In this document: in pieces, positions 55,205-60,315 of the stretch
Layout of the letters: every line of letters starts with the position of its first letter
How positions within the stretch are numbered: position 1 is the first letter of the stretch
Virus record (IMG/VR): IMGVR_UViG_3300013286_000010
Coordinates: 1-64,000 of that record
Source of the DNA: a virus
DNA length: 64,000 nt
Reading direction: 5' to 3' (one strand)
The notes under the pieces: model-generated
The model's input: only the letters and a program-made list of their open reading frames with translations
What the model was told of the DNA's origin: nothing
The model's database searches: none
Program-made: the position numbers and the translations under genes

Positions 55205-56218
55205 ATGCCCTTGTTTAAAAAGGTAGCGTGTTTCACAGATATACACTTTGGTTTAAAATCAAATAGTGGAACACATTTACGAGATTGCGAAGAATTTGTA
55301 GACTGGTTTATCCAAGAAGCGCAGAAAGAGGGTTGCGAGACCTGTATCTTTCTAGGTGACTGGAGCCATAATCGAAATAGTCTAAACTTGTTTACGCTAG
55401 ATAGCAGTCTACGCTGTTTAGAAAAACTAGGTGCAGCATTTGATCAGTTCTACTGGTTCCCAGGTAATCATGATCTCTTTTATAAAGACAAACGTGATAT
55501 CCATAGTAGTGCGTTTGGACGACATATCCCCGGTGTAACCGTAGTCGAAAGTATAACAACAATTGGTGATGTCACGCTTGTTCCGTGGCTTGTGGGCGAC
55601 GAGTGGAAGACTTTAGGTAAGATCAAAAGCAAATATATGTTTGGGCATTTTGAATTGCCCCTGTTCTATATGAATGCCATGGTGCAAATGCCCGATCATG
55701 GTGAGTTATCCCCTGGACATTTTGTACATCAGGACTATGTGTTCAGCGGACATTTCCACAAACGCCAGAATAAAGAACGAGTATGGTATATTGGTAATGC
55801 ATTTCCGCATAACTTTGCAGATACCGGCGACGATGCTCGAGGCATGATGGTCATGGAATGGGGCGGTACTCCAGAGTTTATTGATTGGCTGGACTGCCCG
55901 AAGTATAGAACTGTTAAGCTAAGTGATCTTATCGACAAGAAAGATGAGATCATGAAATCAAAGATGCATATCAAAGTCAATTTAGATATTGATATCAGCT
56001 TTGAAGAAGCCAACTTTATCAAAGAAACATTTATTGCAGACTATGATATCCGTGAGATCAGTCTAATTCAGGATAAAACTAACTTAGACGGAACTATCGA
56101 TGACAATCCAGATGCTACATTTGAAAGTGTTGATCAGATTGTGGCTGAACAATTGATCAATATTGAGAACGGACAGTTTGATAAGAACACACTACTTGAA
56201 ATCTATAATAATCTCTAA
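55205..56218 (+). CDS. recombination nuclease subunit (gp47/Mre11/SbcD-like)
   Basis: DIHFG, LGD, GNHD, GHF, SGHFH metallophosphoesterase motifs. Confidence 0.92.
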   Translation: MPLFKKVACFTDIHFGLKSNSGTHLRDCEEFVDWFIQEAQKEGCETCIFLGDWSHNRNSLNLFTLDSSLRCLEKLGAAFDQFYWFPGNHDLFYKDKRDIHSSAFGRHIPGVTVVESITTIGDVTLVPWLVGDEWKTLGKIKSKYMFGHFELPLFYMNAMVQMPDHGELSPGHFVHQDYVFSGHFHKRQNKERVWYIGNAFPHNFADTGDDARGMMVMEWGGTPEFIDWLDCPKYRTVKLSDLIDKKDEIMKSKMHIKVNLDIDISFEEANFIKETFIADYDIREISLIQDKTNLDGTIDDNPDATFESVDQIVAEQLINIENGQFDKNTLLEIYNNL

Positions 56219-57999
56219 TGTTTAAACTAAAGAATATAACCGTAAAAAACTTTATGAGTGTGGGCAACCAGACTCAAGCAGTTGATTTTGACAAACAAGC
56301 TCTAACATTAGTGCTAGGTAGTAACCACGATCTAGGTGGAGATGACACAGGTTCCCGCAACGGTACTGGTAAAACTACCATTGTCAATGCGTTAAGCTAC
56401 GCGATGTACGGGCAAGCCCTAACCAACATCAAGAAAGAAAATTTGATCAATAAGACCAACGGTAAGAACATGTTGGTCACTGTTGAGTTTGAAAAGAATA
56501 GTACCAAATATCGCATCGAGCGGGGTCGTAAACCTAATGTCCTACAGTTATTTGTCAATGACAATCAATTAAAAACAGATGAACATGAAGATGATAGTCA
56601 GGGCGATAGCCGTGAGACACAGAAGGTAATTGAGCAGATGCTGGAAATGTCGCACACAATGTTCAAACATTTGGTTGCACTAAACACTTATACCGAACCG
56701 TTCCTGTCTATGAAAGCAGCGGATCAACGTGAGGTTATTGAACAGCTATTAGGTATTACATTACTATCGGAAAAAGCCGAAGCCCTTAAAGTATTAGTCA
56801 AAGAAAGCAAGGATCTTATTCAAAAAGAAGAATTTAAGATTGAAGGTATTAAGGCTGCTAATGAAAATGTGCAAAAAAGTATCAACAGTTTAGAGATCAA
56901 GAGTTCTGCCTGGGAAACTAAAAAAGAAAATGATATCGAAGGGTTAGGTCGTGCTATGATGCGATTAGAAAATGTCGACATCGAAACTGAACTAGCTGCA
57001 CATCTGCAACTTAAACAATGGTCCGAGAACAATGTTAAGATTAATAACCTTAACAAACAGAAGGCTACACTAGAATCTGCGGCCATACAAGCTGAAAAAA
57101 CTTTAGCCAAATATAAAAAAGAATTAGAAAGTCTAGCAAATAAAACATGTCATGCGTGTGAACAGGAGTTACACGATCATAAACATGAAGAAATGACTAC
57201 TACGGCTACACAGCACTATGACGAAGCATACGAATATTGGCAACGGATTCGTGCTCAACTTAAACAAGTAATCGAGGAAGTCACTGCAATCGGAGAACAG
57301 CCACATCGCCCGCAGACATTCTATGATACAGAAGCAGAAGCACTGGGTCACAAGAACAATTTAGACGGTCTTGAAAAGAGTTTGACTGCAAAGATTGATG
57401 AATCAAATCCTTACCAAGAACAGATAGCCGAACTTAAGAAGACTGCGATCCAAGAGATCACTTGGGATCATATCAACGAATTGACCAAATTAAAAGATCA
57501 TCAAGAGTTCTTACACAAGCTATTGACCAACAAAGATAGCTTTATCCGTAAGAAGATCATTGATCAGAATTTAAGTTACTTAAACAAACGGTTAGGTTAC
57601 TATATTGACAAGCTAGGGTTGCCGCATCGTGTTGTATTCCAAAACGATCTATCAGTTGAAATTACTCAACTAGGACAAGATCTAGACTTTGATAATCTAT
57701 CTCGTGGCGAGCGCAATCGTTTGATTCTATCAATGAGCTTTGCGTTCCGAGATGTTTGGGAAGGCTTATATCAAAGCATCAATTTATTGTTTATTGACGA
57801 ACTTGTGGATGCAGGTATGGATGCCGCAGGAGTAGAAAGTGCCCTAGCGGTCCTAAAAAAGATGGCACGAGAACGCAATAAGAATATATACTTAATATCA
57901 CACAAGGACGAATTAATAGGTCGTGTAAACAACGTTCTAAGAGTAGTCAAAGAAAACGGTTTTACCTCCTATAGTAATGATGTAGATTATGTTGACTGA
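56218..57999 (+). CDS. recombination ATPase subunit (gp46/Rad50/SbcC-like)
   Basis: NGTGKT Walker A, CHAC hook, LSRGE signature, FIDE, ISH. Confidence 0.93.
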   Translation: MFKLKNITVKNFMSVGNQTQAVDFDKQALTLVLGSNHDLGGDDTGSRNGTGKTTIVNALSYAMYGQALTNIKKENLINKTNGKNMLVTVEFEKNSTKYRIERGRKPNVLQLFVNDNQLKTDEHEDDSQGDSRETQKVIEQMLEMSHTMFKHLVALNTYTEPFLSMKAADQREVIEQLLGITLLSEKAEALKVLVKESKDLIQKEEFKIEGIKAANENVQKSINSLEIKSSAWETKKENDIEGLGRAMMRLENVDIETELAAHLQLKQWSENNVKINNLNKQKATLESAAIQAEKTLAKYKKELESLANKTCHACEQELHDHKHEEMTTTATQHYDEAYEYWQRIRAQLKQVIEEVTAIGEQPHRPQTFYDTEAEALGHKNNLDGLEKSLTAKIDESNPYQEQIAELKKTAIQEITWDHINELTKLKDHQEFLHKLLTNKDSFIRKKIIDQNLSYLNKRLGYYIDKLGLPHRVVFQNDLSVEITQLGQDLDFDNLSRGERNRLILSMSFAFRDVWEGLYQSINLLFIDELVDAGMDAAGVESALAVLKKMARERNKNIYLISHKDELIGRVNNVLRVVKENGFTSYSNDVDYVD

Positions 58000-58297
58000 A
58001 AATTTAGAACGTTATAAACAGTTATATTCAGAATATATAGAGCTGTCTATAGAACTGCATAACTATCAACAAGCGTTCCTTGCTACTCTAGGGCAAGTTC
58101 CTAGAGAGAAAGTAGGGAGCGCCTGGTATAGGATGGGCAAGTTATGTAAAGAAATGAAAAAACTTGCCCGATTAGTACACAGAGACCATTTAGCAAATAG
58201 AATAGAGCTGAAAGCAATTGCAGAAGCAGAAGCCGCTCATAGAAGAGCAAACCCAAAAAAACCGGGCCCAAAAGGTCCATGGAAACATAAAAAATGA
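57989..58297 (+). CDS. hypothetical basic helical protein
   Basis: 102-aa overlapping ORF. Confidence 0.65.
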   Translation: MLTENLERYKQLYSEYIELSIELHNYQQAFLATLGQVPREKVGSAWYRMGKLCKEMKKLARLVHRDHLANRIELKAIAEAEAAHRRANPKKPGPKGPWKHKK

Positions 58298-58491
58298 ACG
58301 ATACAAATACACAACTACAACAACAATTTGCAGAATTCCTAGCCGAAGATGCAAAATTTACAGCAGGTAATGCTGCCGCAGGCACACGCTCACGCAAGGC
58401 TCTAGGAGAGTTAGGCAAGTTAGTCAAAGCTCGCCGTAATGAAATCACTGCCGAGAAGAACGCTCGCAAGGAAGCTAAGGCCGTAAAGTAA
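58294..58491 (+). CDS. Hc1-like (histone H1-like family) small DNA-binding protein
   Basis: KF..GN.AAGTR.RK.L.EL.K..K.RR pattern. Confidence 0.65.
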   Translation: MNDTNTQLQQQFAEFLAEDAKFTAGNAAAGTRSRKALGELGKLVKARRNEITAEKNARKEAKAVK

Positions 58492-58494
58492 TTA

Positions 58495-58923
58495 ATGATT
58501 TGGACTTATCAAGGTCAAGTTGTAAATGAATTACCCGAGGATTGTGTGGGATATGTTTATTGCATAACCAATTTAATCACCGGGCGCCAATATATTGGCA
58601 AAAAATTAGCAAAATTCTCTAAAACGACCTACAAGACAATCACGTTAAAGAACGGCACAAAAAAGAAAAAGAAAATCAGATCTAAAATAGATTCAGATTG
58701 GAAAGAATATTGGGGTAGTAGCCCCAATCTTCAGGCAGATATAGACACCCTAGGCAAAGAAAAATTCTCTCGCGAAATATTATATTATTGTAAAAGTAAA
58801 AGTGAATGTACCTATATAGAAGCAAGAACCCAGTTCGAAAGAAAAGTATTAGAATCAGACGATTATTATAATGGGCAGATAAGTTGCAGGATACACCAGT
58901 CACATATCAAAGGCAAGATATGA
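58495..58923 (+). CDS. GIY-YIG endonuclease (Seg-like)
   Basis: GYVYCITN...GRQYIGKK, Y.GSS, F.REIL, E, YYN. Confidence 0.85.
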   Translation: MIWTYQGQVVNELPEDCVGYVYCITNLITGRQYIGKKLAKFSKTTYKTITLKNGTKKKKKIRSKIDSDWKEYWGSSPNLQADIDTLGKEKFSREILYYCKSKSECTYIEARTQFERKVLESDDYYNGQISCRIHQSHIKGKI

Positions 58924-59201
58924 CAAAACTTGATTATAGCAAAACTAATAAAAGTGACACAGCTTTCTTAAATGATCCGTTTTGGACCAATCCAAAGGCG
59001 GGTTTTGATAAAGCATGGCATGAACAAAGAAATAAACTCAGGCAACATTTAGGCATACACAAAGAACATGATTGGGAAATCATTAACGAACCCACTGGTC
59101 CACATGCAGGCAAAGTAGTCTGTAACACTTGCAAGAGCAAAAAAGGCAAAAGTATGTTCGTATCATGGCTTCCCAAAGGTTATATATCATCTAACACCTA
59201 A
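58920..59201 (+). CDS. hypothetical protein, possible Zn-binding (H...H..CxxC)
   Basis: ATGA overlap at 58920; GPHAGKVVCNTC. Confidence 0.6.
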   Translation: MTKLDYSKTNKSDTAFLNDPFWTNPKAGFDKAWHEQRNKLRQHLGIHKEHDWEIINEPTGPHAGKVVCNTCKSKKGKSMFVSWLPKGYISSNT

Positions 59202-59203
59202 GG

Positions 59204-59560
59204 CTGGCGGGCCGGTTTGTAATACCGCTGTGGAAAAACCGGGGAATAACCGGACACGTGACATATTGAGACACTCCCCTAGGTAGATCCTAGTATCCTG
59301 AAAAATTGGAAGTGAGTATGAGAGCGCGAACCCTAATGCTCGACGTATTGATATAGTATGAATGTTAGCATACGAAAAACCGTGCTATAAACACTTAGAC
59401 ATTAGGAACGAGGTCTAAGACGCATTATGCGAGTCGATGTAGGTTGGGAAAGATCAGAGCCCATTAGCAACACGGTAAAACACCTATTTCCAATGTCTCG
59501 GCTGTGACAACTCACATGAAGACAAAAAGATGGAACCGTGCAAAACGGTTCCGTCTGACT
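59204..59560 (+). ncRNA. candidate large structured non-coding RNA
   Basis: ORF-free, more than 10 complementary segment pairs including long-range and crossing ones (see findings); strand inferred from G-U pairs. Confidence 0.55.
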
Positions 59561-59678
59561 AAAACAATCTACATGAATTTAAAAACACTTCGTGTATATC
59601 ATAATAAGTAAAAACAAACAACTGCTATGAGCGATTAGCGAAAGAGCAAGTGAACGTAGTTCACTTTAATAGATTGAC

Positions 59679-59686
59679 TATAAATA
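59679..59686 (+). promoter_or_regulatory. T4-type late promoter TATAAATA
   Basis: Perfect consensus upstream of ORF 59716. Confidence 0.7.
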
Positions 59687-59715
59687 AAAGATCGTAATCC
59701 CCAAAGGAATAATAT

Positions 59716-60315
59716 ATGAAGATTGAACAGTTAATTAAAGCAGTAAATGAATCCGCAAGTAATGAGGATTTTAATGCAATGTCTCAAAAAGCTAATGCTA
59801 TCAAACAGCAACAGGGTGTTACAAAACCAACAGGTACGGTTCTTCCTTTTCCTAAAACTACCACAGCTACTCCTGGTCCTGCGGGAACTACAGGTCCAAG
59901 TGCTTTAGATAAATTTAAGCAGGGAGCTAGCGCAGTTGGTTCTGCTATTAAAACAGGTGCCCAAGCTGTAGCTAAAAACGCTCCAGCAGTTGGTCAAGGG
60001 GTTAGCAATGTTGCCCAAGGGTTAGGCACAGCAGGTACAGGTATTGTTAAAGGTGCTGGAGATATTGCCAGTCAAGCAGTTGGTGGCGCAACACAAGCAG
60101 TCGGTGCCGGTCTAGGTGGTATTGTTCATGGATACAAAGCTGCTCGTGGTGGACAACAATTTGGCGGAGGTGGTACTGCTGGAACTCCTAGTTCGGCAGG
60201 TGCTCCAAGTACACCTAGTTCTGCAGGTGCCGCAGCAGGCGGTAATGACGAGATGGATCAGTTAAGATCTACACTACAGACAATGGATCAAAGACTACGC
60301 AGGGCAGGTATTTAA
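59716..60315 (+). CDS. Gly/Ala-rich protein with putative capsid-targeting leader
   Basis: MKIEQLIKAVNE; 11-mer amphipathic G/A repeats; late promoter. Confidence 0.7.
   Translation: MKIEQLIKAVNESASNEDFNAMSQKANAIKQQQGVTKPTGTVLPFPKTTTATPGPAGTTGPSALDKFKQGASAVGSAIKTGAQAVAKNAPAVGQGVSNVAQGLGTAGTGIVKGAGDIASQAVGGATQAVGAGLGGIVHGYKAARGGQQFGGGGTAGTPSSAGAPSTPSSAGAAAGGNDEMDQLRSTLQTMDQRLRRAGI

What the first reader, a model, noticed from the sequence alone, without database searches (positions are those of the whole stretch)
59204..59560. Densely paired ~360-nt non-coding region: candidate large ncRNA with pseudoknots
Seen in the only long ORF-free stretch of the window. Crossing pairs: GGCGG(59206)/CCGCT(59225) with CCGGTTT(59212)/AAACCGG(59236). 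Long-range pairs: GAGACA(59268)/TGTCTC(59494), ATTGGAAGT(59305)/ATTTCCAAT(59486), TCGAC(59340)/GTCGA(59433), ACCGTG-CTA(59379)/TAG..CACGGT(59465-76), TAGGT(59440)/ACCTA(59482). Hairpins: CTAGG/CCTAG, GTATG/CATAC, CTTAGAC/GTCTAAG (its loop CATTAGG at 59400 complements CCTAATG at 59332), TGTGA/TCACA, and a 12-bp stem at 59528-59556. I do not recognise tRNA, tmRNA, RNase P or intron cores. Inference: an undescribed ribozyme-scale RNA.
Basis: partly seen in the sequence, partly recalled or inferred. Interest (0 to 1): 0.82.

Follow-up and report, generated by a model that had tools for sequence, protein, structure and literature searches.

The report
Knotted twin-word RNA of lake phages
The gene-free stretch is a real gene for a roughly 400-base, multiply knotted non-coding RNA found in hundreds of uncultured T4-like giant water phages; it is in no RNA catalogue, carries the same 7-letter word twice, and its job is unknown.

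Summary
Confirmed: window 59190-59595 (+ strand) encodes a conserved structured RNA. It has no Rfam, tRNA or tmRNA match. More than 200 IMG/VR contigs carry it, nearly all at the same place: after a small GIY-YIG gene and before the baseplate hub.

On 59 non-redundant copies, my 94-pair model is 92% paired, against 34-38% for slid controls, and 52 pairs show compensatory changes. His crossing pair and most of his long-range pairs fail. The supported knots are 59191-96 with 59363-68, 59436-38 with 59453-55, and helix 59379-87/59465-76 crossing 59439-43/59483-87.

A 7-letter word (ACAUGAA; 59514-20 and 59571-77) occurs twice. Fifteen versions exist among relatives, and the two copies almost always stay identical.

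Most close relatives carry a different RNA at the same place. Its first 141 bases are the orphan Rfam motif Polynucleobacter-1, and it has the same twin-word tail. The window's RNA does not match that motif.

Function is unknown. My best guess is a trans-acting folded RNA that presents two identical words to one reader. No partner sequence was found.

This scan had already found the family on other phage DNA. I re-tested its twin-word and Polynucleobacter-1 leads.

The parts
59190..59595 (+). Conserved core of the structured RNA ('type A twin-word RNA')
   Evidence: Homologs align over this span. The 94-pair model is 92.2% paired, against 34-38% for slid controls.
59191..59196 (+). PK1 5' strand CUAACA. 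It overlaps the stop-codon box AUCUAACACnUAAGG, where the upstream ORFs end.
   Evidence: It pairs with 59363-68 in 100% of cells, and 3 of 6 pairs covary (CUAACA/UGUUAG, CCAACA/UGUUGG, ACAGCA/UGCUGU). ORFs of three families end here, in ..SNT* or at the first UAA.
59206..59229 (+). Hairpin H1 (59206-10/59225-29) with conserved loop GCCAGUUUGUAAUA
   Evidence: GCGG/CCGC changes to GCAG/CUGC and to GCCC/GGGC in the wider set.
59230..59257 (+). Helix 59230-32/59255-57 enclosing hairpin 59239-42/59250-53
   Evidence: U59231 to A covaries with A59256 to U. The inner hairpin has many compensatory forms.
59263..59354 (+). Long-range helix 59263-72/59345-54 closing a variable multi-hairpin domain (59273-76/59314-17, 59279-83/59289-93, 59296-98/59308-10, 59322-25/59338-41)
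   Evidence: 98.7% of cells are paired and 5 pairs covary. The domain is replaced or shortened in variants.
59356..59373 (+). Hairpin 59356-60/59369-73. Its loop UGUUAG (59363-68) is the 3' strand of PK1.
   Evidence: 99.7% of cells are paired and 4 of 5 pairs covary.
59379..59476 (+). Helix P5 (59379-87 with 59465-76). It crosses P6.
   Evidence: Two registers occur, ACCGU..ACGGU and CACCG..CGGUG. The outer part aligns poorly, at 56% paired.
59394..59419 (+). Hairpin 59394-400/59413-19 with near-invariant loop (A/C)UAGGAACGAG
   Evidence: 5 of 7 pairs covary. The loop is unchanged across 114 sequences.
59421..59431 (+). Variable hairpin, the site of large insertions in variants
   Evidence: These are the top covarying pairs of the whole alignment. 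Insertions are seen.
59436..59455 (+). PK2: GAU 59436-38 pairs with AUC 59453-55, inside the loop of hairpin 59445-48/59460-63
   Evidence: 100% of cells are paired and all 3 pairs covary (GAU/AUC, GUG/CAC, GAC/GUC, AAU/AUU).
59439..59487 (+). Helix P6 (GUAGG 59439-43 with CCUAU 59483-87)
   Evidence: 99% of cells are paired and 2 pairs covary.
59514..59520 (+). Word copy 1 (ACAUGAA), preceded by ACAACUC
   Evidence: It is identical to copy 2 in 55 of 58 non-redundant homologs. The strongest coupling of each of its three variable positions tested (1, 5, 7) is with the same position of copy 2.
59529..59555 (+). Stable hairpin between the two words. Its 3' strand GGUUCCGUC and the following UGAC are invariant.
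   Evidence: 96% of cells are paired, with many G-U pairs on this strand.
59571..59577 (+). Word copy 2 (ACAUGAA), preceded by ACAAUCU
59585..59595 (+). Small 3' hairpin ACAC-UUC-GUGU
   Evidence: All 4 pairs covary, but only 70% of cells are paired.
58920..59201 (+). Upstream 93-aa ORF (H..CxxC motif). Its last codons and stop lie in the RNA's 5' box. It is not part of the RNA.
   Evidence: It is present in only part of the RNA-bearing loci. In others the GIY gene or a third ORF family ends in the box.
59650..59686 (+). Downstream flank: hairpin GUGAAC-GUA-GUUCAC (59650-64) and a T4-type late promoter word TATAAATA (59679-86) ahead of the next gene
   Evidence: Read from the sequence. This flank is also shared by relatives that carry the other RNA type.

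Best explanation
Shown: 59190-59595 (+) is a gene for a roughly 400-nt non-coding RNA with at least three crossing helices. It lies at the tail of the gp47-gp46-Hc1-GIY gene row of an uncultured T4-like giant phage of fresh water. It is one of two interchangeable RNA types that occupy this place in the phage group. Type A is the window's RNA. Type B begins with the Rfam motif Polynucleobacter-1. Both end in the same module: word, hairpin, UGAC, 7-8 nt, UCU, same word.

Inferred: the RNA is made by read-through from the upstream genes, because no promoter of its own was found. It works in trans as a folded RNA. The knotted body gives a fixed scaffold that holds two identical single-stranded words (R-N-A-U-N-A-W, each with about 6 more similar bases upstream) about 50-65 nt apart. 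The same reader binds both words, either as a dimer or as two copies of a protein or short RNA.

The many word versions, and the swapping of types A and B between close relatives, point to a reader whose specificity varies between phage or host lineages.
For: Reality and strand:
- More than 200 homologous IMG/VR stretches.
- 92.2% paired against 34-38% for slid controls; 52 of 94 pairs with changes on both sides; 0 of 500 shuffles reach the observed values.
- Many G-U pairs that would be A-C mismatches on the other strand.
- Fold z -3.5 on the + strand against -1.5 on the - strand.

Not coding:
- Only short ORFs.
- The spacing between the two words takes every value from 48 to 68 nt.

Twin word:
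- 55 of 58 non-redundant copies have identical words.
- Of 117 pattern matches, 21 were unrelated chance matches. Among the 96 genuine modules, 94 have identical words and 2 differ by one letter. Shuffles give a mean of 28 and a maximum of 40.
- 15 different words occur.
- The best coupling partner of each word position tested is the same position of the other copy.

Same place, two types:
- 50 of 60 close relatives have the module 300-620 nt after the GIY gene: 45 type B and 5 type A.
- Type B scores 80-116 bits on RF01718.

Transcription:
- No sigma-70-like promoter directly upstream.
- Upstream ORFs end inside the RNA's 5' box.
- Contigs of four metatranscriptome studies cover relatives of 59186-59578, and one joins a GIY gene to the RNA. 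This is weak evidence: they are contigs, and DNA carry-over is not excluded.
Against: - No reader has been identified.
- No complementary partner was found in cis, at nearby ORF starts, in the window or in a 95%-complete 331-kb genome.
- Trans action is not shown.
- The ends of the RNA are not mapped.
- Identity of the two words could have another cause, such as two processing sites.
- No cultured phage carries the RNA, so there is no experimental anchor.
Confidence: 0.45

Rival explanations
1. Processing unit. The two identical words are two cut sites for one endoribonuclease, host or phage. Cutting releases the 50-65-nt hairpin piece between them, or trims the RNA. The layout resembles the repeats of type III antitoxin RNAs (ToxI), where each unit must be flanked by the same cut site, and phage pseudo-ToxI decoys.
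For: - The repeat extends about 6 nt upstream of each word (ACAACUC / ACAAUCU), so the layout is about 1.3 copies of a unit.
- The piece between the words is a very stable conserved hairpin.
- The varying words would fit varying nuclease specificity.
Against: - The remaining roughly 320 nt of conserved, knotted RNA are not explained.
- Only the unit ends are repeated, not the unit body.
- No toxin-like nuclease gene is linked.
- No end data exist; one search used contigs only.
Confidence: 0.15
2. A new ribozyme, self-cleaving or other catalytic RNA.
For: - Its size, several pseudoknots and long invariant unpaired stretches (GUGGAAAAACC, UAGGAACGAG, GGGAAAG, GUCUGAC) are typical of catalytic or machine-binding RNAs.
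Against: - No match to any ribozyme family of Rfam 15, even at E up to 10.
- No exon continuity, as an intron would need. Three unrelated ORF families lie upstream.
- Nothing here bears on chemistry.
Confidence: 0.12
3. Cis-acting tail of the upstream messenger: a 3' structure that stabilises the early transcript, or a translation-coupled switch. Ribosomes would open PK1 and H1 when they terminate in the 5' box.
For: - Upstream ORFs of three families stop inside or within a few nt of the PK1 strand.
- No promoter of its own was found.
- A hairpin and a late promoter follow the RNA.
Against: - 400 nt of sequence-invariant knots is far more than protection from exonucleases needs.
- The upstream gene differs between loci, and a few copies sit in unrelated contexts.
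- The RNA is better conserved than its neighbours: 80-90% nt identity where gp46 is 55% aa.
Confidence: 0.12
4. A DNA-level element such as a replication origin, iterons or a recombination site. The two words would be binding sites for a phage DNA-binding protein.
For: - Direct repeats that change in concert are what co-evolving protein sites look like.
- The element lies beside recombination and replication genes.
Against: - Helices keep pairing through G-U intermediates on one strand only.
- Compensatory changes occur in about 50 pairs, including long-range and loop-to-strand pairs that have no meaning in duplex DNA.
Confidence: 0.04

Closest known systems
Polynucleobacter-1 RNA motif (Rfam RF01718; Weinberg et al. 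2010, PMC2864571). It is an orphan, listed there for Burkholderiales and fresh water/estuary.
   Same: - RNAs that begin with this motif occupy the same genomic place in the window's closest relatives.
- They share with the window's RNA a start at UAAGG right at the upstream stop codon and a first hairpin with a GCCA..AU loop.
- They also share the whole 3' module: GUGAC / CUC-word / hairpin / UGAC / AAUCU-same word / downstream flank.
- Their function is unknown too.
   Different: - The window's RNA does not match RF01718 at E up to 10, nor do 5 other records: 4 type A phages plus L083, which is only a chance match.
- Its 5' and middle domains (PK1, the 59263-59354 domain, the UAGGAACGAG hairpin, PK2) have other sequences.
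- The Rfam model covers only 141 nt and has no twin-word module.
Large ornate phage- and bacteria-associated RNAs of unknown function (ROOL, GOLLD; in Rfam; cryo-EM preprint 10.1101/2024.12.08.627333, seen by title and abstract only)
   Same: It is a large, intricately folded, non-coding RNA often found in phages, with no known function.
   Different: There is no Rfam match to ROOL, GOLLD, HEARO, OLE or raiA. This RNA is smaller, at about 400 nt. Self-assembly was not tested.
T4 gene 60 translational bypass (from general knowledge, not tested): matched take-off and landing codons around a 50-nt gap with a hairpin
   Same: Two identical short words flank a roughly 50-60-nt gap that holds a hairpin, and identity is what is conserved.
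   Different: No reading frame runs into the first word. The identical stretch is 7-13 nt, not one codon.
ToxI-type antitoxin RNA repeats and phage pseudo-ToxI decoys (from general knowledge, not tested)
   Same: Direct repeats bound a small folded unit, and the setting is a phage.
   Different: Only the unit borders are repeated. A 320-nt knotted body is attached. No ToxN-like gene is nearby.

Membership tests
Polynucleobacter-1 (RF01718) | Covariance-model score at or above the gathering score of 37 bits | tested here: not met
   No match at E up to 10 in window 59000-59800 or in the whole 83-kb record. No match in 5 further records: 4 type A phages plus L083, a chance match. No match in 4 odd-context loci. 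Positive control: type B RNAs of relatives score 80-116 bits.
Twin-word RNA superfamily of T4-like water phages (defined in this scan; not a published family) | The 3' module CUC-word / hairpin / U(G/C)UGAC / 7-8 nt / UCU-same word, lying after the GIY gene and before the hub | tested here: met
   In the window, the words lie at 59514-20 and 59571-77 and UGAC at 59556-59. 258 of 304 fetched loci have the module. Synteny is shown.
Group I intron (RF00028) | Match to the core model, and a continuous host gene across the insertion | tested here: not met
   No Rfam match at E up to 10. Three unrelated ORF families lie upstream, and no shared downstream exon exists.
tRNA / tmRNA | Detection by ARAGORN or the Rfam tmRNA models | tested here: not met
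RNase P, 6S, SRP, ROOL, GOLLD, HEARO/omega RNA, OLE, raiA and known self-cleaving ribozymes | Match to the Rfam 15 model | tested here: not met
   Nothing at gathering score in the 64-kb window. Nothing relevant at E up to 10 in 59000-59800.
RNA-guided nuclease system (RNA plus the neighbouring GIY-YIG protein) | Obligate co-occurrence of the RNA and the nuclease gene | tested here: not met
   The GIY gene is present with either RNA type. Some RNA copies follow gp46 directly or lie in loci without a GIY gene (L197, L210, L266, L272), and in L253 the GIY gene is downstream.

The most novel reading that the evidence does not exclude
The two identical words are donor and acceptor sites of a copy-or-jump event that needs identity. 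Candidates are a ribosome hop, a polymerase or reverse-transcriptase template switch, or an excision-and-rejoining of the 50-65-nt hairpin piece. The knotted body would carry out or steer that event, making it a new catalytic or recoding RNA class.
Probability: 0.1. Interest if true: 0.92.

Novelty: new variant of a known kind. Interest (0 to 1): 0.72.

Why it matters
Large, sequence-invariant, multiply knotted RNAs are rare, and most known ones turned out to be ribozymes or parts of core machines. This one is near-universal at one place in a big group of uncultured giant T4-like phages of lakes and seas. It comes in two interchangeable types.

It also shows an unusual signature: two short words that change between relatives but stay identical to each other. 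That signature gives a direct handle for experiments, such as changing one word, both words, or swapping words.

The work also shows that the orphan Rfam motif Polynucleobacter-1 is only the first third of a larger phage RNA.

Tried and rejected
- Rfam at gathering and at E up to 10 gave nothing relevant. ARAGORN gave nothing.
- The RNAalifold long-range helix GUGGA 59230-34 / UCUAC 59568-72 is rejected. In the wider set U59231 to A is compensated at 59256, not in word 2.
- L083 shares the 18-mer but is coding DNA of an unrelated phage, so it is a chance match.
- Small ORF 59504-59611, whose two in-frame ATGs lie in the two words (59516 and 59573): not conserved, because indels between the words shift the frame.
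- Words as antisense to start codons: this fits type A words only. The complement of a copy's own word is no more common at ORF starts than complements of other words (11/749 against 117/4520).
- Words as stop codons UGA/UAA: broken by ACAUCAA.
- Words as complements of tRNA anticodon loops: type B words would need a pyrimidine at position 37 (reasoning only).
- A third copy or a complementary 12-mer in large genomes: only two extra same-sense copies, both inside unrelated coding DNA, about as chance expects. The window 14-mer search gave nothing beyond chance.
- Cultured phages: no DNA match for type A or type B. The nearest cultured relatives by gp46 (Sinorhizobium phage Phosso and Pseudomonas phage PA5oct, about 50% aa) have no such RNA near gp46.
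- Prokaryote genomes: one hit, on a 1.6-kb contig of a Flavobacteriales MAG. This says nothing about the host.
- Metatranscriptome contigs cannot show ends, strand or level. Bins without cover are not evidence.
- The catalogue of about 10,000 viral structured RNAs (PMC10690425) holds motifs of 29-151 nt. Its supplements are not held here, so overlap could not be checked.
- A covariance model of the whole RNA was not built, because of the 400-column and time limits.

Full report
**Setting.** The window is part of an 83-kb IMG/VR contig, estimated at about 23% of a genome. Around the finding lie gp47- and gp46-like recombination nuclease genes (55205-57999), a small Hc1-type histone-like gene (58294-58491) and a 142-aa protein with only a SegE-type GIY-YIG domain (58495-58923). 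A 93-aa ORF (58920-59201) follows, then the gene-free stretch, then a T4 late-promoter word TATAAATA (59679-86). After that come a glycine-rich ORF and a baseplate hub gene on the other strand. The nearest cultured phages by gp46 are jumbo phages (Sinorhizobium phage Phosso, Pseudomonas phage PA5oct) at only about 50% aa identity.

**Homologs.**
- Among the 80 closest gp46 loci, five hold a 77-91% identical copy.
- An invariant 18-mer (CCGCTGTGGAAAAACCGG, at 59225) hits 113 IMG/VR stretches. All but one are full-length copies in the same gene order. The exception, L083, is coding DNA and a chance match.
These share about 90 nt at the 5' end and about 150 nt at the 3' end, with a variable middle.
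- A few copies lie in other contexts, next to Bax1-I, aldolase, SHMT or ClpP genes.
- One hit in 185,579 prokaryote species genomes is a 1.6-kb MAG contig. No cultured phage has the RNA.

**Structure.** I derived helices from compensatory changes only, using 59 sequences (alignment A2) and 114 sequences. The model has 94 pairs in 20 helices.
- It is 92.2% paired, against 34-38% when partners are slid by 1-3 columns.
- 52 pairs change on both sides.
- The covariation score is 0.27, against 0.04-0.05 for slid controls, and no shuffle of 500 reaches any observed measure.
- Many pairs pass through G-U on this strand, so the RNA is read from the + strand.

Three crossings are supported:
- PK1: CUAACA 59191-96 with the loop UGUUAG 59363-68. 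It occurs in three or more co-varying forms.
- PK2: GAU 59436-38 with AUC 59453-55. All three pairs covary.
- P5 (59379-87/59465-76) crossing P6 (59439-43/59483-87).

His crossing pair at 59212/59236 and four long-range pairs are contradicted by covariation. RNAalifold's closing helix GUGGA/UCUAC also fails in the wider set.

**The 5' edge.** The upstream ORFs belong to three unrelated families: the 93-aa ORF, the GIY protein and an 88-92-aa ORF. All end inside the RNA's conserved box AUCUAACACnUAAGG. They end either in the shared tripeptide SNT plus stop, or at the first UAA. The RNA gene therefore reaches at least 59190. The box supplies stop codons in two frames to whatever gene lies in front. 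This fits a cassette that recombines into this place.

**The twin word.** Following a lead from earlier notes of this scan, I tested it myself.
- The 7-mer at 59514-20 equals that at 59571-77 in 55 of 58 non-redundant copies.
- The strongest statistical partner of each word position tested (1, 5, 7) is the same position of the other copy.
- Of 117 pattern matches, 21 were unrelated chance matches. Among the 96 genuine modules, 94 have identical words and 2 differ by one letter, against a shuffled mean of 28.
- Fifteen words occur, with the pattern R-N-A-U-N-A-W.
- Similarity extends about 6 nt upstream (ACAACUC / ACAAUCU).
- The spacing takes every value from 48 to 68 nt, so nothing is read in frame. 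UGAC-to-UCU is fixed at 7-8 nt.
- I found no complementary partner in cis, at nearby ORF starts, in the window or in a 95%-complete 331-kb genome.

**Two RNA types at one place.** The relatives that seemed to lack the RNA have another 400-540-nt gene-free element directly after the GIY gene. Its first 141 nt match Rfam Polynucleobacter-1 at 80-116 bits. Its tail has the same module with words such as AGAUGAU, AGAUAAU or GAAUGAU. Of 60 close relatives with enough sequence, 50 have the module: 45 of this type B and 5 of the window's type A. The window's RNA does not match RF01718. Types A and B therefore behave like alternative alleles of one locus. The catalogued motif is only the first third of type B.

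**Expression.** No promoter-like site lies just upstream, and no classical terminator lies on the + strand. A conserved hairpin (59650-64) and the late promoter follow. Contigs of four metatranscriptome studies cover relatives of 59186-59578, and one runs from a GIY gene into the RNA. This is weak evidence, since contigs show neither ends nor strand.

**What it most likely is.** It is a trans-acting folded RNA whose rigid, knotted body displays two identical words to one reader. That reading is inferred; only the RNA gene, its fold and the twin word are shown. The rivals are a processing unit cut at both words, a ribozyme, a cis-acting messenger tail and a DNA-level element. The DNA-level reading is the least likely, given strand-specific G-U pairs and long-range compensation.

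**Novelty.** The RNA is uncatalogued. It is a sibling of the RNAs that contain the orphan Polynucleobacter-1 motif. The twin-word module and the A/B alternation are not in Rfam or in the papers I could read. Earlier follow-ups of this scan reached similar conclusions on other genomes. Their twin-word and Polynucleobacter-1 claims held up in my own tests.

Noticed in passing
L009:8454-8960, L014:5685-6203, L037:7632-8173, L070:3826-4288: The Rfam motif Polynucleobacter-1 (141 nt) is only the 5' third of a roughly 450-nt phage RNA. That RNA ends in a twin-word module and sits after the GIY gene in most relatives of this phage.
   Followed up: partly
window 59189-59201 and homologous loci: Three unrelated upstream ORF families share the C-terminal residues S-N-T. 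These residues and the stop codon are encoded by the RNA's conserved 5' box, which marks a recombination junction.
   Followed up: partly
window 58294-58491 (+): A 65-aa protein matches the chlamydial histone H1-like Hc1 family (Pfam PF07432, E 5e-12). It is conserved next to gp46 in many of these phages.
   Followed up: no
window 58495-58923 (+): The 142-aa GIY-YIG protein has only the SegE-type catalytic domain. It is present at a fixed place in nearly all relatives, so it does not behave like a mobile homing endonuclease gene.
   Followed up: partly
L272:7200-7800 and L266 (same element, - strand): A copy with the same 3' half but another 5' domain lies among cell-like genes: Bax1-I, class II aldolase and SHMT in one locus, ClpP in the other. 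It is either on a bacterial island or among phage auxiliary genes.
   Followed up: partly
window 59532-59552 (- strand): Read on the - strand, the big hairpin is followed by a T run and looks like a terminator. The T run is not conserved in homologs, so this is probably incidental.
   Followed up: partly
window 59716-60315 (+): A glycine/alanine-rich 199-aa ORF behind the late promoter has a faint tape-measure-like match. It is poorly conserved among relatives.
   Followed up: no
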